This document shows positions 2,575 through 18,820 of a stretch of DNA of 39,502 nt, piece after piece. Each line of letters starts with the position of its first letter. Within the stretch, counting starts at the first letter, position 1. The stretch spans positions 1-39,502 of the forward strand of contig JBIJDX010000002.1 in assembly GCA_044343855.1 (NCBI GenBank), in the 5' to 3' direction. The position numbers were made by a program, and so were the translations under genes. The notes beneath the pieces are model-generated. The model had not been told where the DNA came from, did not search any database, and saw nothing but the letters and a program-made list of their open reading frames with translations. This stretch comes from Flavobacteriales bacterium. Lineage in GTDB: Bacteria > Bacteroidota > Bacteroidia > Flavobacteriales_F > PHOS-HE28.

Positions 2575-3465
2575 TTACCACAACCCCATCGGATACAGCA
2601 CATACGCCAGAAAGAACAGCCCCCAGAAGAACAGGTAGAAGCGCTTCACCTGGGCATCCTCGTCCACATCCAACAGTACCGCCGACAGCACGAACACCGC
2701 CAACGGAATGCCGAATGCCAAGGTGTACCGGGGCGCATGGGGCAGCAGACCGATCCACGCGGGAATCAGCACGGAGAGATAGGCGAAGCCGACGACCACC
2801 GCACCGAGCAACAGCGCCGTGGATCGCCCCATGCGTACCGCCAGCGTACCAAAGCGGAACTCCGCATCACCACGGGTGTCCGGGATGTCCTTGAACCATG
2901 CGATACCGATGCTGAACAAGGCCACGAAAGCCGTGAGCGGTCCGATCACCGGATCGAAGCCAGGACCAACGGAAAGCATCGCGCGGTAATGACTATAGAA
3001 GCCGAGGTTCACCAATATGCCGCGCACCACCGTGATCACCAGTGCTGCACCGAAGTGGTGACGCTTCAGCTGGATCGGCGGCATGGAATAGGCCCAGCCC
3101 AGGAAGCTGATCAACGCGATCAACCCGAAGAACGACCAGGATAACAGGGCGGCGACCACCAAGGCCAATACCAGGCACACCAGCACGATCCGCAATGCTC
3201 CGGCCCGCGACAAGCGACCTGCCGGAATGGGTAGCCACGGCTTATTGATGCGGTCAACCTCCACATCGCTCCATTGGTTGAGGCCGGTGATGAACACATT
3301 ACAGGCCAGTGCCGAGATCAGGCTGGGCAACCACACGCCGAAATGATCAGGCACCGCATCCGGACGCGCCAGCACAAGCACATAGAGTGCCGTTACACTG
3401 AGCGCACTGCCGATGATGGTGTGCGGCCGGGTGAATTGCCAGAAGGTGATGAGCGCACGTATCAT
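2575..3465 (-). CDS. UbiA-superfamily aromatic prenyltransferase, homogentisate phytyl/prenyltransferase-like
   Basis: Start set at MIRALITFWQFTRPHT (ATG 3465..3463), which overlaps the upstream gene's stop as ATGA. About 9 TM helices. The first Asp-rich motif is GLNQWSDVEVDRINKPWLPIPAG (the NQxxDxxxDxxNKP form typical of homogentisate prenyltransferases). The second motif is WFKDIPDTRGDAEFRFGTLAVRMG (KDIPDxxGD). Confidence 0.8.
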   Translation of the reverse strand: MIRALITFWQFTRPHTIIGSALSVTALYVLVLARPDAVPDHFGVWLPSLISALACNVFITGLNQWSDVEVDRINKPWLPIPAGRLSRAGALRIVLVCLVLALVVAALLSWSFFGLIALISFLGWAYSMPPIQLKRHHFGAALVITVVRGILVNLGFYSHYRAMLSVGPGFDPVIGPLTAFVALFSIGIAWFKDIPDTRGDAEFRFGTLAVRMGRSTALLLGAVVVGFAYLSVLIPAWIGLLPHAPRYTLAFGIPLAVFVLSAVLLDVDEDAQVKRFYLFFWGLFFLAYVLYPMGLW

Positions 3466-4205
3466 GGGCGAACAGGCAGGCAATGTACCCATGTGACCGG
3501 CGCCCACCACGGACCGACCATACCACCACGCACCACGAACGATGGTCCGGCCGCCTCCTGCACCCGCGCCAGCAGCACTGCCGGACGATCGGTTCGAAGC
3601 ACACTCACCAGGCCATCCCACGGAATGGTGACCAGATTCACCGGTAGCACATAGGTGAAGAACAGCCGCTCCCAACGGAACGGTCGCACGAAGGGCGCCA
3701 ACAACACCTGCCCTACCGTGGTGGTGAACAAGATCTTCAAAAACACCAGGAGGTTCGGCTGCAGTACTTCATGCACCAACACCCCTCGATGCGCCTGCTG
3801 GCGAACAAGTGTGACCTGCTGGTCTGGTGTGAAGTGATGGAACGTGTTGAACAAGCTCACCGGGCCTTCACCCGGCAGGCGGGCGGCAAGGGCATCAAGC
3901 GCCGCCGGATGCCAGCGCACGTGCTGCGGCAGGTCGGCACCGGGCGAAGGATAGCGATCGGTGAGCGTGAAGCGGACCGAATCAAGGGCCGCTTGCTTGG
4001 CGAGGTAGCGGATCGGTCCGCCCTGACCCGAACCAAGGTCCGTGAGGTGATCGCTTCGCACGTGCTGCAGGGCTGAAGCGATGAGCGGCGCCATCGGGCG
4101 GTAAACCTTGAAGCGCTCCACCAGCCAGCCAATGAACTCCACCTGCATACGGCGGAGCAGTGGAGGAAAGCCGGGCAGATCCTCGAGTTCGATCCAATGG
4201 GCCAT
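3462..4205 (-). CDS. class I SAM-dependent methyltransferase with hydrophobic C-terminal region
   Basis: Start set at the internal ATG 4205..4203 (MAHWIELEDL...). Motif I is LTDLGSGQGGP, followed by an acidic post-I residue (TLTDRYP) and motif II-like VSLFNTFHHF. The stop TGA (3464..3462) overlaps the ATG of the downstream UbiA gene, indicating translational coupling. Confidence 0.75.
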   Translation of the reverse strand: MAHWIELEDLPGFPPLLRRMQVEFIGWLVERFKVYRPMAPLIASALQHVRSDHLTDLGSGQGGPIRYLAKQAALDSVRFTLTDRYPSPGADLPQHVRWHPAALDALAARLPGEGPVSLFNTFHHFTPDQQVTLVRQQAHRGVLVHEVLQPNLLVFLKILFTTTVGQVLLAPFVRPFRWERLFFTYVLPVNLVTIPWDGLVSVLRTDRPAVLLARVQEAAGPSFVVRGGMVGPWWAPVTWVHCLPVRP

Positions 4206-4229
4206 GGGTTGCGTTACTTCGGCGTTCCG

Positions 4230-5651
4230 ATGTACAACGATACGACCGTTCTCGCCATTCTTGGCGGGGCTGTGGCCTTGCTCACCCTGGCAATGGACCG
4301 ACTCGACCGCACGGCGCGCTGGCCGCAGTGGCTGAGCCGAAAGGTGTTGCACGTGGGGGGCGTGGGAACCTGCGCTCTCGCGCCCATGCTACTGGAGGAC
4401 ATTACCACGCTGGCGATCGTGGTGCTCGTGGTAGAAGTGCTGCTGATCATCGTTGTGGGCAGTGGGCGGTTCTTCCGCGAATCGAGCGGTCGACCCGGCT
4501 GGGGCATCGCCCTTTTCCCCCTGCCCTACCTCGTGCTGCTCTGGCTCTTCCCCACCCATGACCAGCGGTGGCTCATCACCGTGCCCATGCTCATCCTGGC
4601 GCTGAGCGACGCAGCAGCAGCCGTATTCGGCATTCTCTTGTATAGTCCCGCTTACCACCTCACCAGCGACCGCAAGAGCCTGGCCGGCAGCGCTGCTTTC
4701 ATCCTCGTCACCTCGGCCATCCTGGTACTGTGGCCCTCGCCCCTCAACGCCTGGCCCTTGACCAACATGCTTGCTGCGGTATTGCTGTTGAGCGTGCTCC
4801 TCGCCACTGCCGAAGCGCTCGGGTCTGCAGGTTGGGACAACGTGTGGATCCCCGCTGGTGCAGCATCGCTAATGGTCTCCCTGGTCTACGGGGAAGCACA
4901 CCAACAGCTGGGTGCGGCATGGATCGCGGCCGCTGTGGCGGTCATCTTCGTGTGGCTGAGTGTGTACAAAGGCTGGCTTACGTTGGGCGGTGCGGTCAGT
5001 GCGGCCCTCCTTGGATGCACAGTGGTATGGACACAAGGACCGAAGTGGATCACTCCCCTCCTCGTGTTCTTCGCTGGCAGTACCCTGCTCAGCAAGCTGG
5101 GGCGCAATACAAGCACCAGCGATGCGAAGCATGGACGTCCGCGTGACGCCGAGCAGGTTTGGAGCAACGGCGGTGTCTACCTCGCGGCGGCGCTGCTGCT
5201 TCCGGGCGAGCTGGCGCACCTGGGAATGATCGTGAGCATGGCCGTCGCCACGGCAGATACCTGGGCGAGTGAGATCGGCATGGCGGTGCGCGGGCGTACG
5301 CTGGATCTCCGCACCGGTCGCATCGTTCCACCAGGGCTTTCCGGCGGCATCAGCCTCGCGGGCACAATGGGTGCGGTGGCGGGTGCCATAGTACTATCCC
5401 TTGCAGCGGGTGCGCTCCTCCGCACCCCCCCTTCCTACCAGGCGCAGATCGCGGCGTGGGGCGTGGCCGGCATGTTGCTGGACAGCCTGCTGGGCGCGTG
5501 GTTGCAGGTGCGTTACAGGGCAGCGGAAGGCACTTGGCGCGACCAACAAGGCAAAGCACCAACGAGGCAACTTGGTCTGGCATGGATGACCAACGACCGT
5601 GTGAACCTGTTGACCATTGCGCTCATAACTGCATTGGCACTGCTGAGCTGA
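4230..5651 (+). CDS. fusion protein: phytol/polyprenol kinase-like domain (VTE5 / dolichol-kinase family) + DUF92 (VTE6 phytyl-phosphate kinase family) domain
   Basis: The N-terminal half has the CTP-dependent prenol-kinase signatures LSRKVLHVGG and LALSDAAAAVFG...SDRKSLAGSAAF. The C-terminal half has DUF92/TMEM19-type blocks: GGAVSAALLG, LLVFFAGSTLLSKLG, RDAEQVWSNGGV, VATADTWASEIG, PPGLSGGISLAGTMGAVAGA. The whole protein is polytopic membrane. The start could be ATG 4197 or ATG 4230 (MYNDTTVLAILGG...); 4230 avoids a head-on overlap with the divergent methyltransferase start. Confidence 0.75.
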   Translation: MYNDTTVLAILGGAVALLTLAMDRLDRTARWPQWLSRKVLHVGGVGTCALAPMLLEDITTLAIVVLVVEVLLIIVVGSGRFFRESSGRPGWGIALFPLPYLVLLWLFPTHDQRWLITVPMLILALSDAAAAVFGILLYSPAYHLTSDRKSLAGSAAFILVTSAILVLWPSPLNAWPLTNMLAAVLLLSVLLATAEALGSAGWDNVWIPAGAASLMVSLVYGEAHQQLGAAWIAAAVAVIFVWLSVYKGWLTLGGAVSAALLGCTVVWTQGPKWITPLLVFFAGSTLLSKLGRNTSTSDAKHGRPRDAEQVWSNGGVYLAAALLLPGELAHLGMIVSMAVATADTWASEIGMAVRGRTLDLRTGRIVPPGLSGGISLAGTMGAVAGAIVLSLAAGALLRTPPSYQAQIAAWGVAGMLLDSLLGAWLQVRYRAAEGTWRDQQGKAPTRQLGLAWMTNDRVNLLTIALITALALLS

Positions 5652-5701
5652 GCGCACCAAGTCCCGAACTTCGCGCCACCTTGGAACAGCGCTCCTTCCG
5701 C

Positions 5702-6880
5702 ATGATCGCCCAGACCCTCTTCGGGTTGGAGGAGGTTTTGCGTGCTGAACTGGTGCGCCTGGGTGCGCGCAACACCGAACGGCACAACCGCGCCGTCAGC
5801 TTCACCGGCGACGAAGGCTTCCTCTACAAGGCCAACCTCGCGCTGCGCACCGCCATCCGTGTGCTGGTGCCCATCGCCAGCTTCGATTCGCGCAATACGG
5901 AGCAGCTCTACATGGGCATCAAACGCATCGGTTGGCAGGACCATCTCCGACCGGACGACACCTTCGCCATCAAGGCCACGCTCAACACCCACTGGACCGA
6001 CCACAGCCAGTTCATTGCGCAGAAATGCAAGGATGCCATCGTGGACCGCTTCCGCGAGAAAAGCGGCCGCCGCCCCTCGGTGGACCTCAACGATCCCGTG
6101 CTGCGCATCCACGTCCACATCATCCACGAGCGCGTCACCGTATCCCTCGACAGCTCGGGCGGGTCCTTGCACGAGCGCGGCTACCGGCAGGACACCAATG
6201 CCGCACCGCTCAACGAAGTGCTCGCCGCCGGCATGGTGCTGCTCAGCGGATGGGACCGTCGGATGCCGCTGGTGGATCCGATGTGCGGCTCGGGCACGCT
6301 GCTGGTGGAAGCGGCGATGATCGCGGCCAACATCCCGCCGGGCATCTACCGCAAACAATTCGCCTTCGAGCGCTGGCCCACCTTCGATGAGGCGCTGTAC
6401 ACCACCGTGCGCAACGCCTTGATAGGTCGCATCACCGAGGCCCGGCCGGTGATCCTGGGCAATGACATCAACCGCGTGACGGTGGCCAAGGCGCGGGATA
6501 CCATCGCTGCCGCACAGTTGGAGGACAGCATCACCCTGCGGCATGGCGACTTCGCCGATATGGAGCCGCCTGCTGGTCCGGGCATGCTGATCATGAACCC
6601 GCCCTATGGCGAACGAATGAACGAGCAGGGCATCGGCACGGCAAGCGATATGGAGGCCATCGATGCGCTGTACGCCATGATCGGCAACACGTTGAAACAC
6701 CGGTGGACCGGCTGGATCGCGTGGGTGCTCACCAGCAACCTCGAGGCCGCCAAGCGCATCCGCCTCACACCGAAGCCGAAGATCCAACTCTTCAACGGTG
6801 CGTTGGATTGCCGCATGCTTCGCTATGACCTGTACGCCGGATCGCGCCGCTTGACACCGCCCCCTGCGCGCGAGGACTGA
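5702..6880 (+). CDS. THUMP-domain class I SAM-dependent RNA methyltransferase (RlmL/COG0116-like)
   Basis: Start moved to the internal ATG 5702 (MIAQTLFGLEEVLRAEL...), the typical N-terminus of this family. The protein has a THUMP region followed by a methyltransferase fold with DPMCGSGTLLVEAA (motif I) and LIMNPPYGERM (the NPPY catalytic motif). Confidence 0.85.
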   Translation: MIAQTLFGLEEVLRAELVRLGARNTERHNRAVSFTGDEGFLYKANLALRTAIRVLVPIASFDSRNTEQLYMGIKRIGWQDHLRPDDTFAIKATLNTHWTDHSQFIAQKCKDAIVDRFREKSGRRPSVDLNDPVLRIHVHIIHERVTVSLDSSGGSLHERGYRQDTNAAPLNEVLAAGMVLLSGWDRRMPLVDPMCGSGTLLVEAAMIAANIPPGIYRKQFAFERWPTFDEALYTTVRNALIGRITEARPVILGNDINRVTVAKARDTIAAAQLEDSITLRHGDFADMEPPAGPGMLIMNPPYGERMNEQGIGTASDMEAIDALYAMIGNTLKHRWTGWIAWVLTSNLEAAKRIRLTPKPKIQLFNGALDCRMLRYDLYAGSRRLTPPPARED

Positions 6881-6943
6881 TCGTTCACACGGTTCATGAA
6901 CGCATCGCGCATCGGCGTGTACCGTTCACGAAACGGAACCATC

Positions 6944-7924
6944 ATGCACCATACCGCACGCACCCTTGCTGTCATTGCCTCGCTGCCGATCGCTCTCAAC
7001 GCTCGTCCTCAGGCCATGGGCAACCTCATGTACGAAAGCAGCAGCCGCATCCACTTCCAACAGGCCGAACAACCTGTGAAGGCAACCGTACAGGGCAACA
7101 TGCTGGTGCTCGAGGTAAACGCCATGATGAACATGAAGGCGGACAGCTACCTCGCCATCTTCCACATCACCCAATTGGGGCAGAGCGCGGAAGAGGCCGA
7201 CAGCCTGATGAACACACGCATCAACGGATTCACGCAGCGGATGAAGGAACATGGTGTGAAGGAGAAGGATGTCTTCCCCGACATGCTCAGCTTCGTGCCG
7301 GTGTATGAGCTGGAGACCACGCGCAAACTCTTCAGCAAGAGCTACCAGGAAGTGCCGGCCGGCTTCGAGATCCAGAAGAACATACACGTCCGCTTCACCG
7401 ATGCCCGCATCCTTGACCGCCTGGTGACCGCGGCAGCCAAGGAGGAGATCTATGACCTGGTGAAGGTGGACTTCTTCGTACAGGACCAGAGCGCCTGCTA
7501 CGACACCCTGCGCATGTTCGCCACCAGACTGTTGCAGCAGAAGCTCGACAACTTCAGCAGGCTCGGCTTGAAGGTGAGCGAAAGTCACCGGATGGCGGCC
7601 GAAAAGAACGGTGCCTACTTCCCGCTGGACCGCTACACCAACTACAAGTCACGCACGCTGACCAGCCTTAACAGCCGTCGCAAGGGCCAGGTGGTGAACG
7701 ATGTCAGGCAGAGCAACACACTCTTTTACAACAAGGTCCCATACGGCCAGTTCGACATCGTGCTGCATGCGGAGATCACCGAGCCGCCGGTGCAATACAC
7801 GTACAACCTCACCATGCAGGTGCAGTTGCCGGAGGCCTGGGCCGACAAGGGGAAGGAGGTGAAGGACATCATCAAATACCTGTGGATCACCGACAAGGGG
7901 GAAATGAAGGAATTGAAGCTCTGA
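6944..7924 (+). CDS. secreted SIMPL/DUF541-like protein
   Basis: Signal-peptide-like N-terminus MHHTARTLAVIASLPIALNA; an alternative ATG lies at 6896. The core pattern VLEVNAMMNMKADSYLAIFHITQLGQSAEEADSLMNTRINGFTQRMKEHGVKEKDVF..MLSFVPVYE fits the SIMPL fold pattern. GC looks slightly lower than in the neighbouring genes. Confidence 0.55.
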   Translation: MHHTARTLAVIASLPIALNARPQAMGNLMYESSSRIHFQQAEQPVKATVQGNMLVLEVNAMMNMKADSYLAIFHITQLGQSAEEADSLMNTRINGFTQRMKEHGVKEKDVFPDMLSFVPVYELETTRKLFSKSYQEVPAGFEIQKNIHVRFTDARILDRLVTAAAKEEIYDLVKVDFFVQDQSACYDTLRMFATRLLQQKLDNFSRLGLKVSESHRMAAEKNGAYFPLDRYTNYKSRTLTSLNSRRKGQVVNDVRQSNTLFYNKVPYGQFDIVLHAEITEPPVQYTYNLTMQVQLPEAWADKGKEVKDIIKYLWITDKGEMKELKL

Positions 7925-8116: not shown

Positions 8117-11100
8117 CTAGCGCTTGCGATGTGACCCGGTATCGCCTTTGGAAGTCGTGTTCCTGCTTGCAACCGCTCCGTGCACCACCTCCTGCACCCT
8201 GGTGCGGATGCCCATGTTAGCCAGCTTATTCTCTGTCGCATTGGGATGAACGCGATTGCTCAGGAAGATGTACACAACGCCCTGCTCCGGATCGGCCCAC
8301 ACCATGGTACCCGTGAAACCGGTGTGTCCGAAGCTCGCATAGCTGACACAGTCGCACGTGGGACCGCCATTGCCTTGGGCCGGACGGTCCCAGCCCAGCG
8401 CACGCCTGTTCCCGCTGCCATCAGGCTTGCAGAATTGGCATTTGGTGAACTCGCCAACCACAGCCTCGGTCAGGTAACGCCTGCCACCATAGGTGCCTTT
8501 GTTCAACAGGAGCTGCATCACCTTGGCAAGGTCGGTGGCACTACCGAAGAGACCCGCATGACCGGCCACGCCACCCTTCAGCGCAGCGCCCTGGTCGTGT
8601 ACATCGCCCTGCAGCTGGCGCTTGCGGAACAGCTGGTCGTTCTCAGTGGGTGCGATGCGGTCCTTGGCAAAACGCTCATAAGGTCGATACCCCAGTGTTG
8701 CGGCACCAAGCGGAACATAGAACTCCAGTTCCACATAACGGTCCAAGGGCATTCCGACCCGCCGCTCGATGAGCTCCTGCAACAGGTAGTAGCCCATGTC
8801 GCTGTAGAGGTAAGTGCCCCTGGCACCCACCGGGGTCTCCAACACCCAGGTCAGGAGGCTGTCGCGATAGGCGTTGTTCAGGTACAGGCCTTCAGCAATG
8901 CGAATTCCATGGGTCCCACTGCTGGTATCGCTCACCGCACCCGGCTTGAATCGACCGTCCGTCAGGATCCTGTTCTGAAAGGGTACGTAGGCCTTCAGGC
9001 CGGCCTGGTGCGTGAGTATGTCGCGCAGGCCCATGCGGGCATGCGAAGGGTAGCGTTCATCCAGCTCGGGCAGGTAATGACCAAGCTGCTTGTCAAGATC
9101 CACCTGCCCCTGGTCCACAAGCTTCATCAGCGCCAACGTGGTGCTGGCCACCTTCGTGATCGACGCCAGGTCGTACAGGTCATCGGTGCGCACCGCACGG
9201 CTGCCCCCATGGGTGGTTGAACCGTAGGCTTTGTCGATGATGACCTGACCATCCACCGCCACAAGCACCTGCGCACCAGGGTAGGCTTTTGCGGCGATGC
9301 CCTCCAGCACGATCCGGTCCATGGCAGCGAACTGGCGGCTCGCGATGCCGAGCTCCTCAGGCATGGTGAAACCCATTCGTCCGCACCCTTGCACCTCCCG
9401 GCCATCACCCTTGCGGTAGAACGAGGAGGCGGTGATCGGCAGCATTCCATCGGCCGAGCGCGCACCGAAGAGCACCTGCGCCACGAGGTCCTGCGTGTCA
9501 TCGGTCTCTTCGTAGGCCACCACCACGGTGGCCAGGTAGTGCGCCCCGGAGGCACGCGCCAACCGATAGGGATTGGCGAAGAGGCAGAAGGTGGTGGGTT
9601 TGCGCGCAGCCACTTCGCGCACGATGTCCATGGAAGTCTCAGGTATGCCGAAGTCCTTGTTGACGCGGTACGAGGTGCCGTGCACGCTCACGATCACCCG
9701 GTCGAACCGCTCCAGCTGGGTGAGCAGTGCGGTGAGCGAATCACGGCGCAGGCTCTTGCCGCAGGCGAAGGTGGTGACGTCGCCGTATCGCTGCAGATGG
9801 CGCTGGAAGGCGTTATCCTGATCGGCACCGATCACCAACGATGCGATGCGATGCCCTTGTAGCGGCTGGAACGGAAGGCTGTTGGAACGATCGTTGAGTA
9901 CGGTGATGGCGGCGCCGTAGAGCCGGCGGCGCAGAAGCTTGGCGCGCTCACTGTTCAGGTCGTCCAGGAGCCCTGGCGTGTTCACCGGGTGGCGCTGACG
10001 GAGCCCGGCCCACTGCTTGGCACGCAGGACCTTGAGGCATTTGTGATCGATCACCAGGGGATCCAGCTCACCGCTCTGCACGGCCTGCTTGATGCGTTCA
10101 ATGGCCTTCACGGGGTCCTGCGGGAAAAGCATCATGTCATTCCCGGCCCGCAGCGCGCGCAGTTCGATCTCCCCAGGCCGCTCCGCATTGGCGACCCCCT
10201 TCATGTTCAATGCATCGGTGAACACCAGCCCACGAAAACCGATCTCACGCTCCAGCAGATCCTGCACGATGGGACGGCTCAACGTGCTCGGCTGCCCCTT
10301 GACGGGATCGAGCGCAGGTACTTCGAGATGACCCACCATCATCGCGGAAAGCCCTTCGTCCACCAAACGCTGGAAGGGATAAAGCTCCATGGAATCCAGC
10401 CGGGTGCGGCTGTGGGCGATCAGGGGCAGCCCGTAGTGGGAATCGGTATCAGTGTCGCCGTGACCGGGGAAGTGCTTGGCAGTCGCGATGACCCCACCCT
10501 GCTGCAGGCCACGCATATAGGCAATGCCCTTGCGCGCCACCAGCTCGCGGTCCTCACCGAAGCTGCGGTCATTGATGACCGGGTTGGCCGGATTGTTGTT
10601 CACATCAACCACGGGACTGAAGCTCACATGCACCCCCAAGCGCTTCATCTGCCGGGCGATCTCAACGCCCATATCCGTTATCAGCGCATCGTCACGCAGG
10701 GCGCCGAGTGTCATCTGCCTCGGATAGCGGATCGAGCTGTCCAATCGCATGGCCAACCCCCACTCAAGGTCCATGCCGATGAGGAGCGGGGTGGCTGCCG
10801 CTGCCTGGTAGCGATCCGTAAGGCGTGCCTGGCGCTGTGGACCACCCTGGAAGAAGATCAACCCGCCGATATTCCGGTCACGTACAAGCCCCTCGATCTC
10901 CGCCTCGTGCTTCGCATCCTTGTTGGAGTAAGCCGCCACCATCATCAATTGGGCTATGCGCTGGTCAAGGGACAGGGTGCTCAGTACCGAATCGGCCCAG
11001 AACGTATCATCCGCCAGGAACGGCGGTGGCTGCCCGTTTACACGTCCGTTGGGTGGTGAAGTGCCCAGGTTGAGCAGTGCAAGCGGTAGGAGGAGGAGGA

Positions 11101-11119
11101 CCTTGCGTGTTGGTTGCAT
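8117..11119 (-). CDS. bifunctional-type glycoside hydrolase family 3 (NagZ-like beta-N-acetylglucosaminidase) / serine beta-lactamase-fold (PBP/esterase) protein
   Basis: The track start at 11131 is GTG. The ATG at 11119 gives the signal peptide MQPTRKVLLLLPLALLNLG. The GH3 N-domain shows KHFPGHGDTDTDSH and GLVFTDALNMKG. The C-terminal beta-lactamase fold shows SxxK (ASITKV), YSD and HTG (FGHTGFTG). Confidence 0.9.
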   Translation of the reverse strand: MQPTRKVLLLLPLALLNLGTSPPNGRVNGQPPPFLADDTFWADSVLSTLSLDQRIAQLMMVAAYSNKDAKHEAEIEGLVRDRNIGGLIFFQGGPQRQARLTDRYQAAAATPLLIGMDLEWGLAMRLDSSIRYPRQMTLGALRDDALITDMGVEIARQMKRLGVHVSFSPVVDVNNNPANPVINDRSFGEDRELVARKGIAYMRGLQQGGVIATAKHFPGHGDTDTDSHYGLPLIAHSRTRLDSMELYPFQRLVDEGLSAMMVGHLEVPALDPVKGQPSTLSRPIVQDLLEREIGFRGLVFTDALNMKGVANAERPGEIELRALRAGNDMMLFPQDPVKAIERIKQAVQSGELDPLVIDHKCLKVLRAKQWAGLRQRHPVNTPGLLDDLNSERAKLLRRRLYGAAITVLNDRSNSLPFQPLQGHRIASLVIGADQDNAFQRHLQRYGDVTTFACGKSLRRDSLTALLTQLERFDRVIVSVHGTSYRVNKDFGIPETSMDIVREVAARKPTTFCLFANPYRLARASGAHYLATVVVAYEETDDTQDLVAQVLFGARSADGMLPITASSFYRKGDGREVQGCGRMGFTMPEELGIASRQFAAMDRIVLEGIAAKAYPGAQVLVAVDGQVIIDKAYGSTTHGGSRAVRTDDLYDLASITKVASTTLALMKLVDQGQVDLDKQLGHYLPELDERYPSHARMGLRDILTHQAGLKAYVPFQNRILTDGRFKPGAVSDTSSGTHGIRIAEGLYLNNAYRDSLLTWVLETPVGARGTYLYSDMGYYLLQELIERRVGMPLDRYVELEFYVPLGAATLGYRPYERFAKDRIAPTENDQLFRKRQLQGDVHDQGAALKGGVAGHAGLFGSATDLAKVMQLLLNKGTYGGRRYLTEAVVGEFTKCQFCKPDGSGNRRALGWDRPAQGNGGPTCDCVSYASFGHTGFTGTMVWADPEQGVVYIFLSNRVHPNATENKLANMGIRTRVQEVVHGAVASRNTTSKGDTGSHRKR

Positions 11120-11279
11120 GGCTGGTGGCACGAAACTACGGGGGGCCCAGGGGGGGCTACAGCGAAGAACGGGCCAGTTTTGAACAAGTCTGCGGTGGCA
11201 GCCATTGTGTCAACGGCATGGAGGCCGGTCTTCGTGCTTGCCCGTGCGAAACCGACCAAAGGATCGCGTGCCTCTGTCG

Positions 11280-13503: not shown

Positions 13504-14244
13504 ATGCGCATGGATGCCAACCCCTTCGCCGGATTGCCGGTGGTTGTCAAGAACCTGCTCATCATCAACGTACTGCTCTTCCTTGTAAAGGTCACCGGTC
13601 TCGGCAACTGGGGAGGAGCGGACATGGACACCCACCTTGGCCTGCACTACTTCAGTTCACCCAATTTCCGTCCATGGCAACTGGTAACGCATATGTTCAT
13701 GCACGGTGGCACCGCCCACCTCTTCCTGAACATGCTCGGCCTGTACATGCTCGCGCCACCGCTGGAGTACAAATGGGGAAGCCAACGCTTCCTCACGTTC
13801 TACATGATAACCGGTGTGGGTGCCGCGCTCTTCTACAGCGGAGCCCACTACATCGACTACGCGGAACTGCGCGCACTGCTCAGCCCGGAGCAGTACCAAC
13901 AGGTATTGGGAGAAGGTGGTGACCTGTGGGCCGGCGGGCGCAACTACGTGGATGCGGACATGGGGCGCCTCAATGCACTGCTGAACACCCCCATGGTGGG
14001 TGCTTCAGGTGCGATCTACGGGGTGCTGCTCGCCTTCGGAATGACCTTCCCCAACGTGGAACTGATGGTATTCCCGATCTTCATCCCCATCAAGGCCAAA
14101 TACTTCGTGTTGATCTACGGGGCCATCACCGTTTACATGAGCCTGCAGCACGACCCGGACGATAACGTGGCGCACCTGGCGCATCTCGGAGGGATGGTGG
14201 TCGGTTATGTGCTCATCCAGCTCTGGCGACAGCGTGGGCAATGA
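13504..14244 (+). CDS. rhomboid-family intramembrane serine protease
   Basis: Six TM helices. Catalytic GxSG (MVGASGAIYGVLLAFG), catalytic His (AHLAHLGGMVVG), and the HMFMHGG..HLF.NM motif. Confidence 0.9.
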   Translation: MRMDANPFAGLPVVVKNLLIINVLLFLVKVTGLGNWGGADMDTHLGLHYFSSPNFRPWQLVTHMFMHGGTAHLFLNMLGLYMLAPPLEYKWGSQRFLTFYMITGVGAALFYSGAHYIDYAELRALLSPEQYQQVLGEGGDLWAGGRNYVDADMGRLNALLNTPMVGASGAIYGVLLAFGMTFPNVELMVFPIFIPIKAKYFVLIYGAITVYMSLQHDPDDNVAHLAHLGGMVVGYVLIQLWRQRGQ

Positions 14245-14355
14245 AACACCCGACCAGCTCCGATCACCGCTCAATGAGACTTCCCAACGAAGGCAGTGCA
14301 GTGCGACCTTTGCACGGGAGCGGAGGCGAAGCGTGAACGGCACCTTCCTGAAGAG

Positions 14356-15267
14356 ATGAGCATAACGGACGACCTGCGGATGCAATGGCGGATGGGGGGC
14401 ATGACGGTGCGCCTGATCCTTGTCAACGTGGGGGTTTTCGTGGCCTTGGTGCTGCTCAAGGTACTGCTCCTTCCCATGGCCGGCAGCGGAGCGGCCGCCG
14501 ACGCGCTGCGCGACACCTATGTGGTCCAATGGCTTCGGTCCACAGCCGACCCCGCTGCCCTGCTGACCCGGCCATGGACGGTGGTGACCTACATGTTCAC
14601 CCATACCGGTCTGGGGCACGTCTTCTGGAACATGGTGCTGCTGTGGTTCGGCGGAAGGCTGTTCCAGGACCTGCTGGGTGGCAGGCGCCTATTGGGCTAC
14701 TACCTGCTCTCCGGACTGAGCGGCATGGCCCTTTTCGTGGCGGTCCAATGGCTGCTGCCCGGGCTGCACGGCATGGGGCACGGCCTGGGGATCATGGGGG
14801 CTTCGGCAAGCGCCCTCGGGGTGTTCATGGGGATCGCCGCCTATCGTCCCGACATGCCGGTCCACCTGATCATCATCGGTCCCGTGAAATTGGTCTACGT
14901 GGCCGCGTTCTTCCTGCTCCTGGACCTTGTGGGCATCGGAAGCGGCGATGGTGTCGCGCACGAAGCCCACATCGGAGGTGCCCTGTTCGGCATCGTGGCA
15001 TCCCTGCGACTGAAGAAAGGCAACGACCCCGCCATGGGTCTCATGAACTTGCTGGACCGCGCGGCCGGCCTGTTCGGACGATCAAATGGACGCCCGCGGA
15101 TGAAAGTGGCCAAGCATGCCGCAACAGGCCCGCGACCCGTGCGCACCGGAGCCCAGGACATGCAGACCCGCATCGACGCCATACTGGACAAGATCTCGCG
15201 CAGTGGCTATGACAGCCTCACCAAGCAGGAGAAGGACCTGCTTTTCAAGGCGAGCGGGCGCAACTGA
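14356..15267 (+). CDS. rhomboid-family intramembrane serine protease (paralogue with cytoplasmic C-terminal tail)
   Basis: Start set at the internal ATG 14356 (MSITDDL...). Motifs YMFTHTGLGHVFWNM, GASASALGVFMG (the Ser motif) and HEAHIGGALFG. An extra C-terminal segment of about 70 aa ends IDAILDKISRSGYDSLTKQEKDLLFKASG. Confidence 0.85.
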   Translation: MSITDDLRMQWRMGGMTVRLILVNVGVFVALVLLKVLLLPMAGSGAAADALRDTYVVQWLRSTADPAALLTRPWTVVTYMFTHTGLGHVFWNMVLLWFGGRLFQDLLGGRRLLGYYLLSGLSGMALFVAVQWLLPGLHGMGHGLGIMGASASALGVFMGIAAYRPDMPVHLIIIGPVKLVYVAAFFLLLDLVGIGSGDGVAHEAHIGGALFGIVASLRLKKGNDPAMGLMNLLDRAAGLFGRSNGRPRMKVAKHAATGPRPVRTGAQDMQTRIDAILDKISRSGYDSLTKQEKDLLFKASGRN

Positions 15268-16430: not shown

Positions 16431-17870
16431 ATGCTGTTCAACTCGCTCGATTTCGCGGTGTTCCTGCCGCTGGTCTTCGCCCTTTTCTGGGCGATACCGG
16501 CCGCACGCACTGACCTGCGTAATGCGCTTCTGCTTGTTGCCAGCTATGTCTTCTATGGGTGGTGGGACATACGCTTCCTGGCATTGATCGCATTCAGCAC
16601 GTTTCTTGATCTCTACCTGAGCATCGGTATCAGCCGCAGCACCGATGAACGACGAAGAAAGCTCCTGCTATGGTCCAGCCTTGCAGTGAACCTCGGTCTC
16701 CTGGGTTTCTTCAAGTACTTCAACTTCTTCCTGGACCAGGTGAACGGGGCGTTCAGCCTGTTGGGCATGCCATTGGGTTCGGAGCATCTGGATATCATCC
16801 TGCCGGTGGGCATCAGCTTCTACACCTTCCAAACGCTCAGCTACACCATCGATGTATATCGGGGTGACCTGAAGGCAAGCCGCGACCCCGTGGCGTTCGC
16901 AGCGTTCGTGAGCTTCTTCCCTCAGCTGGTGGCGGGCCCCATCGAGCGTGCCTCCAACCTGCTGCCACAGTTCGACACTCCCCGACGTTTCAGCCGGAAC
17001 GCAGCTGTGGATGGCAGCCGCCAGATCCTGTGGGGCTTCTTCAAGAAGTTGGTGATAGCGGACAACTGTGCCGAACAGGTGGACCGGATCTTCGCCGGGC
17101 ATGAAACGGCCGGTGCAAGCACACTGGTCCTGGGCGCAGTCCTCTTCGCTTTCCAGATATATGGGGATTTCAGCGGGTATAGCGATATCGCCATCGGTGT
17201 TGCCCGGCTGTTCGGCTTCGAATTGATGCGCAATTTCGCTTTTCCTTACTTCTCACGAGACATTGCCGAGTTCTGGAGGCGTTGGCACATCAGCCTTGGC
17301 ACCTGGTTCAGGGACTACCTCTACGTTCCGATCGGTGGCAGTCGCGGGGGCACCGCCTTGCGTGTGCGCAACACCTTCATCATCTTCCTTGTCAGCGGGT
17401 TCTGGCACGGCGCCAACTGGACCTTCGTGGCGTGGGGTGCCCTGAATGCACTCTACTTCATCCCACTCCTGCTGTCCGGTCGGAACAGGCACAACCTGGG
17501 TACGGTGGCCGAGGGGCGCACACTTCCCGCATGGGGTGACGTGCTGCGCATGACCGGAACCTTCTCCATCACCTGCCTGGCCTGGGTCTTCTTCCGTGCC
17601 GTTGACCTGCGGCACGCGCTTGAGTATCTGGCTGGCATGGCCGATGCAAGCCTGTTCACCATGCCGGAAGTGGGCAATAGCAACCTGCCCATGCTGCTCG
17701 GTTTCTTTGTCATCTTGGAATGGGCGGGCAGGGAGGACCAATACGGCATTCAGCGCACCGGACTGAACCGGTCCCGCTTGGTCCGCTGGATCTTTTATGC
17801 ACTGCTGATAGCCATGATCGGCCTGTTCATGCGCACGAAGGAGGCACCGTTCATCTACTTCCAGTTCTGA
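16431..17870 (+). CDS. MBOAT-family membrane-bound O-acyltransferase (AlgI/DltB/PatA-like)
   Basis: 479 aa, polytopic. Family signatures are FFPQLVAGPIER, FWRRWHISL..WFRDYLYVPIGG and the catalytic His block VSGFWHGANW. Confidence 0.9.
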   Translation: MLFNSLDFAVFLPLVFALFWAIPAARTDLRNALLLVASYVFYGWWDIRFLALIAFSTFLDLYLSIGISRSTDERRRKLLLWSSLAVNLGLLGFFKYFNFFLDQVNGAFSLLGMPLGSEHLDIILPVGISFYTFQTLSYTIDVYRGDLKASRDPVAFAAFVSFFPQLVAGPIERASNLLPQFDTPRRFSRNAAVDGSRQILWGFFKKLVIADNCAEQVDRIFAGHETAGASTLVLGAVLFAFQIYGDFSGYSDIAIGVARLFGFELMRNFAFPYFSRDIAEFWRRWHISLGTWFRDYLYVPIGGSRGGTALRVRNTFIIFLVSGFWHGANWTFVAWGALNALYFIPLLLSGRNRHNLGTVAEGRTLPAWGDVLRMTGTFSITCLAWVFFRAVDLRHALEYLAGMADASLFTMPEVGNSNLPMLLGFFVILEWAGREDQYGIQRTGLNRSRLVRWIFYALLIAMIGLFMRTKEAPFIYFQF

Positions 17871-18820
17871 TGCGCAGCTACCTCACCAACCTGCTCCTGT
17901 TCGCGCTGTTCGCACTGCCGGCCTACGCGGTTTTCATCATTCTGGCAGGGAGCATTTCCCCTTTCAGCCAGCACCGCAACATCAAATACGCGCGCGGTGG
18001 ATACGGTCACCTGTACAATCGCCTGCAGGAAGCCGACACCACCGGGAAGGTGGACATCCTGTTCCTTGGCTCCTCCCATGCCTACCGCGGCTTCGATCCA
18101 CGCATCTTCAGCAAGGCGGGATATTCCAGCTTCAATCTGGGTTCCAGTTCGCAGACCCCCATCCAGACAAAGATCCTCTATGAACGGTACATCGACCGTT
18201 TAAGCCCCAAGCTTATCGTGTTCGACATATTCCCCAACACCTTCAATACGGAAGGGGTGGAATCGTTCCTTAACCTCCTGTCCAATGCACCGCTGAGCCA
18301 TGACCTGGTGATGGCTGCCATCCAAAGCAGGCATGCAACCGTTTGGAATACGATGCTACTGTCCGCATGGAGGACATTGATCGGTGCGAACGACGGTTTC
18401 AAGGAACCGCTTTACAGGGCGAACGACAAGGACCTGTATGTTCCGGGTGGATACGTGGAAAAAGGAGCACGGGAATTCAAGCCAGCTGATAAGAGGATCA
18501 CATTCAAGTGGTCGCCGCCTGAGAACCAGTGGCAAGCCTTCCTTGCCATACTGCTGGCATCCGAACGCAGGGGGATCCCGGTGATACTTGTACAGACCCC
18601 GGTCACCGGACCATATCAGTACGCGCCTGAAGACCGCATGGAACTGGAACGCCTGTTAGGCCCGCTGGCAGATGCCCATCTCGATCTCAGCGATGCCTTG
18701 CACGGCAATGAGGCCGATCTCTTCTACGATGGACATCACATGAACCAGAACGGGGTGGAACGATTCAATGCTCTCTTTCTGGACAGCCTTGCGGCGCACG
18801 GTTTCATACCCCTCCCCTGA
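17870..18820 (+). CDS. membrane-anchored SGNH/DltD-like partner protein of the MBOAT
   Basis: The ATG at 17870 overlaps the MBOAT stop by 1 nt (TGATG). An N-terminal TM anchor is followed by a Ser block VDILFLGSSHAYRGFDP (similar to the GSSE block I recall for DltD) and a terminal Asp/His block FYDGHHMNQNGVERF (the DxxH of SGNH hydrolases). Confidence 0.6.
   Translation: MRSYLTNLLLFALFALPAYAVFIILAGSISPFSQHRNIKYARGGYGHLYNRLQEADTTGKVDILFLGSSHAYRGFDPRIFSKAGYSSFNLGSSSQTPIQTKILYERYIDRLSPKLIVFDIFPNTFNTEGVESFLNLLSNAPLSHDLVMAAIQSRHATVWNTMLLSAWRTLIGANDGFKEPLYRANDKDLYVPGGYVEKGAREFKPADKRITFKWSPPENQWQAFLAILLASERRGIPVILVQTPVTGPYQYAPEDRMELERLLGPLADAHLDLSDALHGNEADLFYDGHHMNQNGVERFNALFLDSLAAHGFIPLP

What the first reader, a model, noticed from the sequence alone, without database searches (positions are those of the whole stretch)
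2575..5651. Prenol-salvage + aromatic prenylation module: VTE5-like/VTE6-like kinase fusion divergent from a methyltransferase / homogentisate-prenyltransferase-like operon
Four enzymatic domains that operate together in plant and cyanobacterial tocochromanol synthesis sit here in about 3 kb.
- Gene 4230..5651 fuses a CTP-dependent prenol kinase-like half (LSRKVLHVGG; LSDAAAAVFG...DRKSLAGSAAF; VTE5 / dolichol-kinase family) to a DUF92/COG1836 half (FFAGSTLLSKLG, ATADTWASEIG, GGISLAGT). COG1836 is the family of VTE6 phytyl-phosphate kinase. One polypeptide could therefore convert a free prenol to prenyl-P and then prenyl-PP.
- The divergent operon encodes a class I SAM methyltransferase translationally coupled (ATGA) to a UbiA enzyme.
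- That UbiA enzyme's Asp-rich motifs (NQWSDVEVDRINKP and KDIPDTRGD) are the homogentisate phytyl/solanesyl-transferase (VTE2/HST) variants. They are not the MenA, UbiA or chlorophyll-synthase variants.

The rest of the window looks like a non-photosynthetic, T9SS-bearing Bacteroidota chromosome, and no tocopherol cyclase or chlorophyll gene is visible. The inference is a compact pathway that makes a methylated prenyl-(hydro)quinone or tocochromanol-like lipid from salvaged prenol, for example phytol from algal or cyanobacterial prey or detritus. As far as I know, such a pathway is not characterised in this phylum.
Basis: partly seen in the sequence, partly recalled or inferred. Interest (0 to 1): 0.7.

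Follow-up and report, generated by a model that had tools for sequence, protein, structure and literature searches.

The report
Bacteroidota prenol-salvage and prenylquinol module
A non-photosynthetic Bacteroidota genome carries a conserved three-gene set (a fused two-step prenol kinase, a vitamin-E-type aromatic prenyltransferase and an unclassified methyltransferase) that probably makes a methylated prenyl-quinol lipid, chemistry so far studied only in plants, algae and cyanobacteria.

Summary
Window 2575-5651 encodes a UbiA prenyltransferase (2575-3465, -) and a 247-aa protein (3462-4205, -) whose stop overlaps the UbiA start (ATGA). Head-to-head with them lies a 473-aa fusion (4230-5651, +).

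- **UbiA:** it passes NCBI's curated homogentisate phytyltransferase model (279.5 bits, cutoff 226). Every other UbiA family scores below 80 bits.
- **247-aa protein:** it matches no Pfam or NCBIfam model. Its predicted structure is a class I SAM methyltransferase closest to small-molecule phenol methyltransferases.
- **Fusion, C-half:** DUF92, the VTE6 family.
- **Fusion, N-half:** no Pfam hit by itself, but homologues 54% identical pass the CTP_transf_1 threshold (the VTE5/dolichol-kinase family).

The module recurs in hundreds of Bacteroidota genomes and metagenomes, and nothing else is co-conserved with it. In related loci the 247-aa methyltransferase is replaced by VTE3-like and VTE4-like methyltransferases, once beside a geranylgeranyl reductase fragment. 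That points to homogentisate-type chemistry.

Still untested are the acceptor, the prenol, the product, and any cyclase or homogentisate source. No HPPD or cyclase lies in the window. I rate this a new variant of a known pathway, uncharacterised in this phylum.

The parts
2575..3465 (-). UbiA-family aromatic prenyltransferase, homogentisate phytyltransferase (VTE2/HPT)-like, 296 aa
   Evidence: PF01040 at 4.6e-37. NCBIfam NF009525 homogentisate phytyltransferase 279.5 bits against a cutoff of 226; the next family scores 79.6 bits. Asp-rich motifs NQxxDxxxD and KDxxDxxGD are invariant across 30 relatives.
3462..4205 (-). 247-aa class I SAM-dependent methyltransferase of an unmodelled family, with a hydrophobic helical insertion (residues ~152-219); its stop overlaps the UbiA start (ATGA)
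   Evidence: No Pfam or NCBIfam hit. AlphaFold2 pLDDT 94.8. Foldseek against PDB gives 172 hits at E<1e-3; the top hits are SibL, NcsB1, ASMT and DnrK-type small-molecule methyltransferases. Motif DLGSGxGGP and LTDxYP are conserved. ATGA overlap confirmed.
4206..4229 (.). 24-bp gap between the divergent start codons (no gap if the fusion starts at 4197)
   Evidence: Sequence read. The head-to-head arrangement is conserved in related loci.
4230..4919 (+). N-terminal half of the fusion: divergent CTP_transf_1 (VTE5 / dolichol-kinase-like) membrane domain, putative prenol kinase
   Evidence: No Pfam hit for the window protein itself. Homologues P0025 (54% identical) and P0113 hit PF01148 at 31.0 and 31.8 bits, above the gathering score of 24, over residues 8-198. 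Invariant residues are R48, K49, H52, D138, K160, G164, E206, D214 and N215.
4935..5624 (+). C-terminal half of the fusion: DUF92 / COG1836 (VTE6 family) membrane domain, putative prenyl-phosphate kinase
   Evidence: PF01940 at 1.4e-52, 179 bits, residues 236-465. TIGR00297 scores 86 bits, below its cutoff of 205.85. All 36 aligned homologues carry the domain.
4230..5651 (+). Complete fusion gene, one 473-aa polypeptide
   Evidence: Continuous ORF. More than 535 full-length relatives in GTDB species genomes. AlphaFold2 pLDDT 91.6 and pTM 0.90 for the whole chain.

Best explanation
The locus is a three-gene lipid module of a non-photosynthetic Flavobacteriales-like bacterium.

**Proposed mechanism**
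1. The fusion protein converts a free isoprenoid alcohol (phytol, geranylgeraniol or similar) in two steps on one membrane polypeptide. The CTP_transf_1-type N-half phosphorylates the prenol to prenyl-phosphate. The DUF92 C-half phosphorylates that to prenyl-diphosphate.
2. The HPT-like UbiA enzyme attaches this prenyl group to an aromatic acceptor, most likely homogentisate, to give a 2-methyl-6-prenyl-1,4-benzoquinol.
3. The translationally coupled 247-aa methyltransferase, whose hydrophobic helical insertion probably sits in the membrane, methylates the ring or a hydroxyl of that product.

The end product would be a methylated prenyl-benzoquinol or quinone, possibly cyclised elsewhere to a chromanol.

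**Shown here**
- The gene structures.
- The family or fold of each domain.
- The conserved linkage of the genes.

**Inferred**
- Both kinase activities.
- The identity of the prenol and of the acceptor.
- The methylation site.
- The final product and its physiological role (antioxidant or redox lipid).
For: **UbiA protein**
- It scores 279.5 bits on the curated homogentisate phytyltransferase equivalog (cutoff 226). ChlG, BchG, DGGGPS and MenA/UbiA models score 16-80 bits, far below their cutoffs.
- Eight syntenic UbiAs from distant loci also pass (239-301 bits). A plant family member scores about the same, 298 bits.
- The window UbiA is 37-42% identical to cyanobacteria-like HPTs. Those are 31-44% identical to the long, plant-like members.

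**Fusion protein**
- DUF92 scores 179 bits.
- Its N-half homologues pass the PF01148 threshold.
- Residues are invariant in both halves.

**Methyltransferase**
- Confident class I SAM methyltransferase fold, closest to phenolic small-molecule methyltransferases.

**Linkage**
- ATGA coupling.
- UbiA lies divergent from the fusion in 28 of 80 genome loci, and 22 of those also have the methyltransferase.
- Anchored on UbiA, the methyltransferase sits directly upstream in 50 of 80 metagenome loci and the fusion is present in 33 of 80, although many contigs are short.
- These are the only recurrent families.

**Pathway context**
- In L004 (Bacteroidota; same UbiA clade; fusion present) the 247-aa methyltransferase is absent. 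Two methyltransferases with VTE3-like and VTE4-like N-terminal motifs lie upstream instead.
- L146 and L161 carry the same two methyltransferases directly upstream of an HPT-like UbiA (NF009525, 343-347 bits). L146 also has a geranylgeranyl-reductase-family fragment.
- Cyanobacteria-like contigs show VTE4-like methyltransferase plus HPT, and one has HPPD beside them.
Against: - No HPPD, tocopherol cyclase, geranylgeranyl reductase or VTE3/VTE4-type methyltransferase is in the 39.5-kb window. None recurs near the module.
- The window's own N-half fails Pfam.
- A profile search of PDB sequences and a Foldseek search of the fusion model gave nothing significant. CdsA appears only at E about 1.2.
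- The linked UbiAs form their own lineage rather than nesting among cyanobacterial or plant enzymes, with only 53% bootstrap on a rough NJ tree. A different acceptor is therefore possible.
- The fusion occurs alone in many FCB lineages, and the methyltransferase-UbiA pair occurs without it. The functional coupling is therefore facultative.
- No biochemical data exist for any member, and I could not search the literature.
Confidence: 0.55

Rival explanations
1. Same architecture, different acceptor. The UbiA enzyme prenylates an aromatic compound other than homogentisate (another hydroxyphenyl or hydroquinone acid, or a phenolic pigment precursor) and the methyltransferase O-methylates it. The product is a new prenylated phenolic lipid unrelated to tocochromanols or plastoquinol.
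For: - The linked UbiAs are a separate lineage, about as far from cyanobacterial HPT as plant enzymes are.
- From my own knowledge, the plant branch of this family has repeatedly evolved new acceptors, for example flavonoid prenyltransferases.
- The methyltransferase is unrelated in sequence to VTE3 or VTE4, and its closest folds are phenolic O-methyltransferases.
- No HPPD is nearby.
Against: - The protein passes the curated HPT equivalog cutoff.
- In L004 the same UbiA clade sits beside VTE3-like and VTE4-like methyltransferases in place of the 247-aa methyltransferase. This suggests the methyltransferases are interchangeable on one type of substrate.
Confidence: 0.22
2. The fusion is a general isoprenoid-alcohol recycling enzyme of FCB bacteria, for example for farnesol, geranylgeraniol or longer polyprenols released by phosphatases. 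It is not dedicated to the UbiA-methyltransferase pair. The adjacency reflects loosely shared lipid metabolism, and UbiA draws mainly on de novo prenyl-diphosphate.
For: - 52 of the 85 fusion-anchored loci (5 from contig look-ups, 80 genome loci), including Neolewinella, Marinimicrobia, Ignavibacteria, Chloroherpeton-like and Lentisphaeria, have no HPT-like UbiA within 10 kb and no other recurrent neighbour.
- The methyltransferase-UbiA pair stands alone in several low-GC contigs.
Against: - The tight head-to-head arrangement (0-24 bp) is kept from 30% to 85% fusion identity across Flavobacteriales, Chitinophagales and Saprospiraceae MAGs. That is more than chance adjacency.
- A two-step kinase makes exactly the diphosphate that a UbiA enzyme needs.
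Confidence: 0.13
3. The N-half is not a kinase but a cytidylyltransferase like CdsA or CarS. It would make a CDP-activated lipid, and the DUF92 half would have a different, unknown membrane function.
For: - PF01148 is named for cytidylyltransferases, and the assignment of the N-half is only at superfamily level.
- The DUF92 score on TIGR00297 is below its cutoff.
Against: - The N-half lacks the CdsA C-terminal signature (K-D-x-G-x2-[LIF]-P-G-H-G-G-x-D-R-x-D), recalled from PROSITE and read.
- Instead it carries D-x2-A-x3-G...K-S-x-x-G-S and E-x-L...D-N-x-x-x-P. From memory, these match VTE5 and dolichol kinase.
- Fusion to the VTE6 family fits consecutive phosphorylations.
Confidence: 0.06
4. 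The UbiA enzyme is an archaeal-type DGGGP synthase (ether lipids) or a (bacterio)chlorophyll synthase.
For: Weak cross-hits to these families, as expected within the UbiA superfamily.
Against: - DGGGPS models score 49-57 bits against cutoffs of 296-353.
- ChlG and BchG models score 43-76 bits against cutoffs of 212-436.
- No chlorophyll or GGGPS genes are in the window.
Confidence: 0.02

Closest known systems
Plant and cyanobacterial phytol-salvage and tocopherol entry steps: VTE5 (phytol kinase), VTE6 (phytyl-phosphate kinase), VTE2/HPT (homogentisate phytyltransferase), VTE3 (MPBQ methyltransferase)
   Same: - The same four protein activities in the same logical order.
- UbiA passes the HPT equivalog model.
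- The C-half is the VTE6 family, PF01940.
- The N-half is in the VTE5 superfamily through its homologues.
- A methyltransferase is coupled to the prenyltransferase.
- VTE5's role as phytol kinase is stated in PMC5789312. VTE6's role is from my own knowledge (vom Dorp et al. 2015, listed in that paper's references).
   Different: - The host is a non-photosynthetic Bacteroidota.
- The two kinases are one polypeptide.
- The methyltransferase is an unrelated, unmodelled family with a membrane-type insertion.
- No cyclase, gamma-TMT or HPPD is linked.
- The UbiA is a separate lineage, 37-42% identical to cyanobacteria-like HPT.
- The prenol and the product are unknown.
   Same: A methyltransferase lies directly upstream of, and co-directional with, an HPT-family UbiA.
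   Different: - The methyltransferase there is VTE4-like (WGEHMHHGYY motif).
- HPT scores 435-475 bits on NF009525, against 279.5 here.
- HPPD is adjacent in L165.
- No kinase fusion is next door.
Bacteroidota-type loci with VTE3-like and VTE4-like methyltransferases (L004, L146, L161)
   Same: - L004 has the same UbiA clade (53% identical) and the same divergent fusion.
- The hosts are non-cyanobacterial.
   Different: - Two classical-type methyltransferases take the place of the 247-aa methyltransferase.
- L146 adds a geranylgeranyl-reductase-family fragment.
- L146 and L161 carry a different HPT subclade (343-347 bits).
Homogentisate solanesyltransferase (HST) and plastoquinone synthesis
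   Same: The same UbiA subfamily, and a methylated prenyl-benzoquinol that is not cyclised is a plausible end product when no cyclase is present.
   Different: HST uses solanesyl-diphosphate made de novo. Here a prenol-salvage kinase is linked, which suggests a C15-C20 alcohol. No test of chain length was possible.
COG1836/DUF92 comparative genomics that led to VTE6 (PlantSEED, Seaver et al. 2014; vom Dorp et al. 2015), recalled from memory and not re-read here
   Same: Clustering or fusion of DUF92 with prenol-kinase-like genes in prokaryotes was, as I recall, part of the evidence for VTE6. A fusion of this kind is therefore probably not unseen.
   Different: As far as I know, that work did not describe the linkage to an HPT-like UbiA and a new methyltransferase in Bacteroidota. 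I could not verify this because the paper tools failed.

Membership tests
Homogentisate prenyltransferase (VTE2/HPT/HST; NCBIfam NF009525) | UbiA-superfamily membrane prenyltransferase domain | tested here: met
   PF01040 at 4.6e-37, residues 24-282.
Homogentisate prenyltransferase (VTE2/HPT/HST; NCBIfam NF009525) | Score above the curated equivalog cutoff and well above sister UbiA families | tested here: met
   279.5 bits against cutoff 226; the next family scores 79.6 bits. Syntenic relatives score 239-301 bits.
Homogentisate prenyltransferase (VTE2/HPT/HST; NCBIfam NF009525) | Asp-rich motifs of the NQxxDxxxDxxNKP and KDxPDxxGD type | tested here: met
   NQWSDVEVDRINKP and KDIPDTRGD are present. 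N63, Q64, D67, D71, N74, K75, K192, D193, D196, G199 and D200 are invariant in 30 relatives. That these variants are typical of HPT and HST is from memory.
Homogentisate prenyltransferase (VTE2/HPT/HST; NCBIfam NF009525) | Phylogenetic placement inside the clade of characterised HPT, HST and HGGT enzymes | tested here: inconclusive
   On an NJ tree the linked UbiAs form their own lineage (53% bootstrap) beside the cyanobacteria-like (95%) and long plant-like (97%) groups. No outgroup or named references were available.
Homogentisate prenyltransferase (VTE2/HPT/HST; NCBIfam NF009525) | Uses homogentisate as acceptor, with decarboxylation | not testable with these tools
   Needs an enzyme assay or lipidomics.
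VTE5 / dolichol kinase (Pfam PF01148 CTP_transf_1) | Direct match of the window protein to PF01148 | tested here: not met
   No hit even at E<=10 for the N-half alone.
VTE5 / dolichol kinase (Pfam PF01148 CTP_transf_1) | Membership by homology to proteins that pass the family threshold | tested here: met
   P0025 (54% identical, full length) scores 31.0 bits and P0113 scores 31.8 bits, both above the gathering score of 24, over residues 8-198. 4 of 36 aligned homologues hit.
VTE5 / dolichol kinase (Pfam PF01148 CTP_transf_1) | Kinase-type motifs (D-x2-A-x3-G, K-S-x2-G-S, E...D-N-x3-P) rather than the CdsA signature | tested here: inconclusive
   The motifs are present and invariant and the CdsA-type HGG/DRxD is absent. 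The reference motifs are recalled from memory, not from aligned reference sequences.
VTE5 / dolichol kinase (Pfam PF01148 CTP_transf_1) | CTP-dependent phosphorylation of a prenol | not testable with these tools
   Needs an enzyme assay.
VTE6 / DUF92 / COG1836 (Pfam PF01940) | DUF92 domain | tested here: met
   PF01940 at 179 bits, residues 236-465, 249 of 251 profile positions.
VTE6 / DUF92 / COG1836 (Pfam PF01940) | TIGR00297 family cutoff | tested here: not met
   86.2 bits against cutoff 205.85. This is a divergent branch of the family.
VTE6 / DUF92 / COG1836 (Pfam PF01940) | Prenyl-phosphate kinase activity | not testable with these tools
   Needs an enzyme assay.
Class I SAM-dependent methyltransferase | Rossmann-like methyltransferase fold | tested here: met
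   AlphaFold2 pLDDT 94.8. 172 PDB methyltransferase matches at E<1e-3, probability 1.0, TM about 0.5.
Class I SAM-dependent methyltransferase | Motif I (GxGxG) and an acidic residue after strand 2 | tested here: met
   DLGSGxGGP and LTD are conserved (D56, S59, G60, G62, D83).
Class I SAM-dependent methyltransferase | Match to any curated methyltransferase sequence model | tested here: not met
   No Pfam or NCBIfam hit. None of the 120 listed homologues has a precomputed Pfam domain.
VTE3 / VTE4 methyltransferases | Sequence similarity to MPBQ or gamma-tocopherol methyltransferases | tested here: not met
   The VTE3-like and VTE4-like proteins of L004 find nothing in the window by tblastn at E<=0.01. 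The 247-aa methyltransferase is at most a functional analogue.
Complete tocochromanol pathway | Tocopherol cyclase and HPPD in the same genome | tested here: inconclusive
   Absent from the 39.5-kb window and not recurrent within +-10 kb of about 110 related loci. The rest of the genome could not be searched.

The most novel reading that the evidence does not exclude
Many non-photosynthetic Bacteroidota (Flavobacteriales-, Chitinophagales- and Saprospiraceae-type lineages of fresh water, soil and sludge) make vitamin-E-like or plastoquinol-like methylated prenyl-benzoquinols, partly from phytol or geranylgeraniol scavenged from phototroph biomass. They would use a fused VTE5-VTE6 kinase, an HPT-like prenyltransferase and a previously unrecognised membrane methyltransferase family that substitutes for VTE3/VTE4. 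That would place tocochromanol-type lipid synthesis outside phototrophs and their descendants.
Probability: 0.3. Interest if true: 0.8.

Novelty: new variant of a known kind. Interest (0 to 1): 0.6.

Why it matters
[quoted passage not shown] A conserved homogentisate-type prenylation module in abundant heterotrophic Bacteroidota would challenge that.
- **New ecology to look for.** It would point to an unrecognised antioxidant or redox lipid in these bacteria. It would also suggest a trophic link in which phytol from degraded chlorophyll is reused.
- **A useful enzyme.** It offers a natural single-polypeptide prenol-to-prenyl-diphosphate kinase for pathway engineering.
- **An unmodelled protein family.** It defines a methyltransferase family that current domain libraries miss.
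- **It is testable.** Expression, feeding and lipidomics experiments can address every step.

Tried and rejected
**Searches that gave nothing useful**
- A profile search of PDB sequences with the fusion alignment found only chance hits.
- Foldseek of the confident fusion model against PDB gave no significant match. CdsA 4q2g ranked 15th at E 1.2, so fold-level support for the N-half is inconclusive.
- Direct Pfam scans of the N-half and of the 247-aa protein at E<=10 found nothing.
- NCBIfam cannot identify VTE3 or VTE4. It gave only generic methyltransferase hits for P0519 and P0520. Their VTE3-like and VTE4-like labels therefore rest on motifs I recall (HK[KR]EA[FY]WFY...; WGEHMHHGYY) and on their similarity to the methyltransferase next to cyanobacteria-like HPTs.
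- Cluster look-ups to obtain named reference sequences for a phylogeny gave almost no names. One plant protein, from Oxalis, was the exception. The trees therefore use context labels instead.
- The first bootstrap run timed out.

**Literature**
- Every paper search attempt failed with time-outs.
- vom Dorp 2015 is not held. The PlantSEED paper is not held by DOI.
- Other look-ups for these papers and for Romer 2024 timed out.
- Novelty is therefore judged from annotation names and my own knowledge.

**Hypotheses rejected**
- DGGGP synthase and ether lipids, chlorophyll or bacteriochlorophyll synthase, and MenA/UbiA, on HMM scores.
- Recent horizontal acquisition, because GC content is uniform.
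- The long ORF extensions (UbiA to 3675; fusion from 4197; methyltransferase ORF to 4352) as real coding sequence. They overlap the neighbouring genes, and most homologues lack them.

Full report
**1. Observation**

The region holds three genes.
- *UbiA-family gene.* The ORF runs 2575-3675 on the minus strand. Homologue alignments and the neighbouring gene place the start at the ATG at 3465, giving 296 aa.
- *247-aa gene.* It lies at 3462-4205 on the minus strand. Its TGA overlaps the UbiA ATG in the tetranucleotide ATGA.
- *473-aa gene.* It lies at 4230-5651 on the plus strand.

The two divergent starts are 24 bp apart. If the upstream ATG at 4197 is used they overlap by 9 bp. Most homologues begin at the MYNDTT/MHNDTT position. 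The apparent conservation of the extension is explained by the methyltransferase N-terminus encoded on the other strand. GC content is even across the window.

**2. The UbiA protein**

- Pfam gives PF01040.
- NCBIfam's curated equivalog for homogentisate phytyltransferase (NF009525) scores 279.5 bits against a cutoff of 226. The best other UbiA family reaches 79.6 bits. Models for ChlG/BchG, DGGGP synthase, MenA and UbiA all fall far below their cutoffs.
- The 120 closest homologues are all about 295-300 aa. Where they are named, NCBI and JGI call them 'homogentisate phytyltransferase'.
- An exhaustive phmmer search of 1.84 billion representatives finds 190 at E<1e-30. The short bacterial ones are followed by 360-550-aa proteins, one of them from a plant.
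- UbiAs from eight distant syntenic loci also pass the cutoff (239-301 bits), as does the plant protein (298 bits).
- Cyanobacteria-like HPTs recovered from metagenomes score 435-475 bits. A second non-cyanobacterial type (L146, L161) scores 343-347 bits.
- On NJ trees the UbiAs linked to the methyltransferase or the fusion form their own lineage with 53% bootstrap. It sits beside well-supported cyanobacteria-like (95%) and plant-like (97%) groups.
- The window protein is 37-42% identical to the cyanobacteria-like group. That is no further than plants are from cyanobacteria, at 31-44%.

The protein therefore belongs to the homogentisate-prenyltransferase family by curated HMM criteria, as a distinct subclade. 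Its acceptor is inferred, not shown.

**3. The fusion**

- *C-half.* Residues 236-465 match DUF92/PF01940 at 179 bits. From my own knowledge this is the family of the plant phytyl-phosphate kinase VTE6.
- *N-half.* It has no Pfam hit even at E<=10. However, 4 of 36 full-length homologues hit PF01148 (CTP_transf_1). Two of them exceed the gathering threshold, including P0025, which is 54% identical to the window protein (31.0 and 31.8 bits against 24), over residues 8-198. PF01148 is the family that holds CdsA, dolichol kinase and VTE5.
- *Motifs.* The N-half keeps invariant R48, K49, H52, D138, K160, G164, E206, D214 and N215. As far as I recall VTE5 and dolichol kinase, its D-x2-A-x3-G, K-S-x2-G-S and E...D-N-x3-P motifs match the kinase branch. 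The CdsA signature is absent.
- *Structure.* The AlphaFold2 model is confident for the whole chain (pLDDT 91.6, pTM 0.90). Neither a PDB sequence search nor Foldseek gave a significant match.

**4. The 247-aa protein**

- No Pfam or NCBIfam model matches it or any of its 120 listed homologues. NCBI names a few of them 'class I SAM-dependent methyltransferase'.
- Its AlphaFold2 model has pLDDT 94.8. It matches 172 PDB methyltransferases at E<1e-3. The best are small-molecule, mostly phenolic, methyltransferases: SibL, NcsB1, ASMT and DnrK.
- Motif I (DLGSGxGGP), LTDxYP, an invariant FHHF and a conserved hydrophobic helical insertion at residues ~152-219 define the family.
- I infer that the insertion gives access to a membrane-embedded substrate.

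**5. Conservation of the module**

- *Close and intermediate relatives.* They keep UbiA, the methyltransferase and the divergent fusion.
- *Loci anchored on the fusion.* Among 80 loci from GTDB species genomes, 28 have the HPT-like UbiA immediately upstream and divergent, and 22 of those also have the methyltransferase. These are Flavobacteriales, Chitinophagales/Ferruginibacter, Saprospiraceae and unclassified Bacteroidota MAGs, with fusion identity down to about 30%.
- *The remaining fusion loci.* They show no such UbiA and no other recurrent neighbour. They include Neolewinella isolates, Marinimicrobia, Ignavibacteria, Chloroherpeton-like, Lentisphaeria and Myxococcota.
- *Metagenome loci anchored on UbiA.* The methyltransferase is directly upstream in 50 of 80 and the fusion is present in 33 of 80, although many contigs are short. 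Several long low-GC contigs carry the methyltransferase-UbiA pair alone.
- *Recurrent families.* All-against-all clustering of flanking ORFs finds only these three, plus a VTE4-like methyltransferase family.

The methyltransferase-UbiA bicistron is therefore the core. The fusion is a frequent but facultative partner with a wider distribution of its own.

**6. Clues to the chemistry**

- *L004.* This Bacteroidota contig has a T9SS-tailed protein nearby. It carries the window-type UbiA (53% identical) and the divergent fusion but lacks the 247-aa methyltransferase. Instead, 0.6-2.4 kb beyond the UbiA gene's 3' end (on the side away from the fusion) lie two methyltransferases. Their N-terminal motifs (HKREAYWFYWYLSNFYDKLVNP...; WGEHMHHGYY) match what I recall of plant-type VTE3 and of VTE4 and the cyanobacterial MPBQ methyltransferase.
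- *L146 and L161.* The same two methyltransferases, 51-64% identical to those of L004, sit directly upstream of an HPT-like UbiA. L146 also has a C-terminal fragment of a geranylgeranyl-reductase-family protein (TIGR02032, E 2.7e-17).
- *Cyanobacteria-like contigs.* A VTE4-like methyltransferase lies directly upstream of HPT. In L165 a truncated HPPD (TIGR01263, E 6.5e-43) lies beside them.
- *Exclusion.* The 247-aa methyltransferase and the VTE3/VTE4-like methyltransferases never occur next to the same UbiA.

This pattern is what would be expected if all of them methylate a homogentisate-derived prenyl-benzoquinol. It is circumstantial evidence for the window's own gene.

**7. What is missing**

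- The window has no HPPD, tocopherol cyclase, geranylgeranyl reductase or chlorophyll gene, and none recurs near the module.
- Whether the product is a quinol, a quinone or a chromanol is open. So is which prenol is used.

**8. Mechanism and confidence**

The best-supported reading, at confidence 0.55, is as follows.
1. The prenol is converted to prenyl-phosphate by the N-half and then to prenyl-diphosphate by the C-half.
2. The UbiA enzyme transfers the prenyl group to homogentisate.
3. The coupled methyltransferase methylates the product.

The rivals are a different aromatic acceptor (0.22), a general prenol-recycling role for the fusion with only loose coupling (0.13), a cytidylyltransferase rather than a kinase in the N-half (0.06), and DGGGPS or chlorophyll synthase (0.02, effectively excluded).

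**9. Novelty**

- Pipelines already annotate the UbiA as homogentisate phytyltransferase and the fusion as a DUF92 protein.
- From memory, prokaryotic DUF92 and prenol-kinase clustering or fusion contributed to the discovery of VTE6.
- What appears undescribed is the conserved linkage of the fusion, an HPT-like enzyme and a new methyltransferase family in non-photosynthetic Bacteroidota. Its replacement by VTE3/VTE4-like methyltransferases in sister loci also appears undescribed.
- A 2017 review still describes tocochromanol synthesis as confined to photosynthetic organisms apart from Plasmodium (PMC5789312).
- Literature searches failed throughout the session, so prior description after 2017 cannot be excluded.

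I rate the finding a new variant of a known kind, with interest 0.6.

Noticed in passing
L004:2558-5882 (GCA_041753595.1, JBGSTW010000031.1); L146:95-3416; L161:3-2326: Non-cyanobacterial contigs carry VTE3-like and VTE4-like methyltransferases next to an HPT-like UbiA. L146 also has a geranylgeranyl-reductase-family fragment, and L004 has the kinase fusion. They look like more complete tocopherol- or plastoquinol-type gene sets in Bacteroidota-like genomes.
   Followed up: partly
L165:1-2799: A cyanobacteria-like contig has a truncated HPPD gene divergent from a VTE4-like methyltransferase and an HPT operon. It served as an in-session reference for what a genuine homogentisate pathway cluster looks like.
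   Followed up: partly
window 4197-4229 and 3466-3675: Gene callers extend the fusion to the ATG at 4197 (MGHGLRYFGVP...) and the UbiA ORF to a TTG at 3675. Both extensions overlap the methyltransferase gene. The 'conserved' fusion extension seen in some relatives mirrors the methyltransferase N-terminus (MAHWIELED) on the opposite strand, so it is probably an annotation artefact.
   Followed up: yes
window 8117-11131 (-): A 1004-aa protein fuses a glycoside hydrolase family 3 N-terminal domain (NagZ-like) to a serine beta-lactamase/transpeptidase-like domain.
   Followed up: no
window 26995-31287 (+): A 1430-aa T9SS cargo protein has a Reelin subrepeat-B domain, SprB repeats and a CHU_C sorting domain. 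It confirms the Bacteroidota T9SS context.
   Followed up: no
window 13504-15267 (+): Two rhomboid-family protease genes lie in tandem. The second has a DUF6576 tail.
   Followed up: no
window 16431-18820 (+): An MBOAT-family acyltransferase is followed by an overlapping 366-aa ORF with no Pfam hit. This could be a DltB/AlgI-type pair.
   Followed up: no
window 5582-7924 (+): A THUMP/RlmL-type RNA methyltransferase and a SIMPL (DUF541) protein lie downstream of the fusion. They are conserved only in the closest relatives (L001, L006, L007), so they are not part of the module.
   Followed up: yes
L020, L057, L071 (Neolewinella lacunae, N. marina, N. aurantiaca): Cultured Neolewinella species encode the kinase fusion, or its DUF92 half, without an adjacent HPT-like UbiA. 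They could serve as experimental systems for the fusion alone.
   Followed up: no
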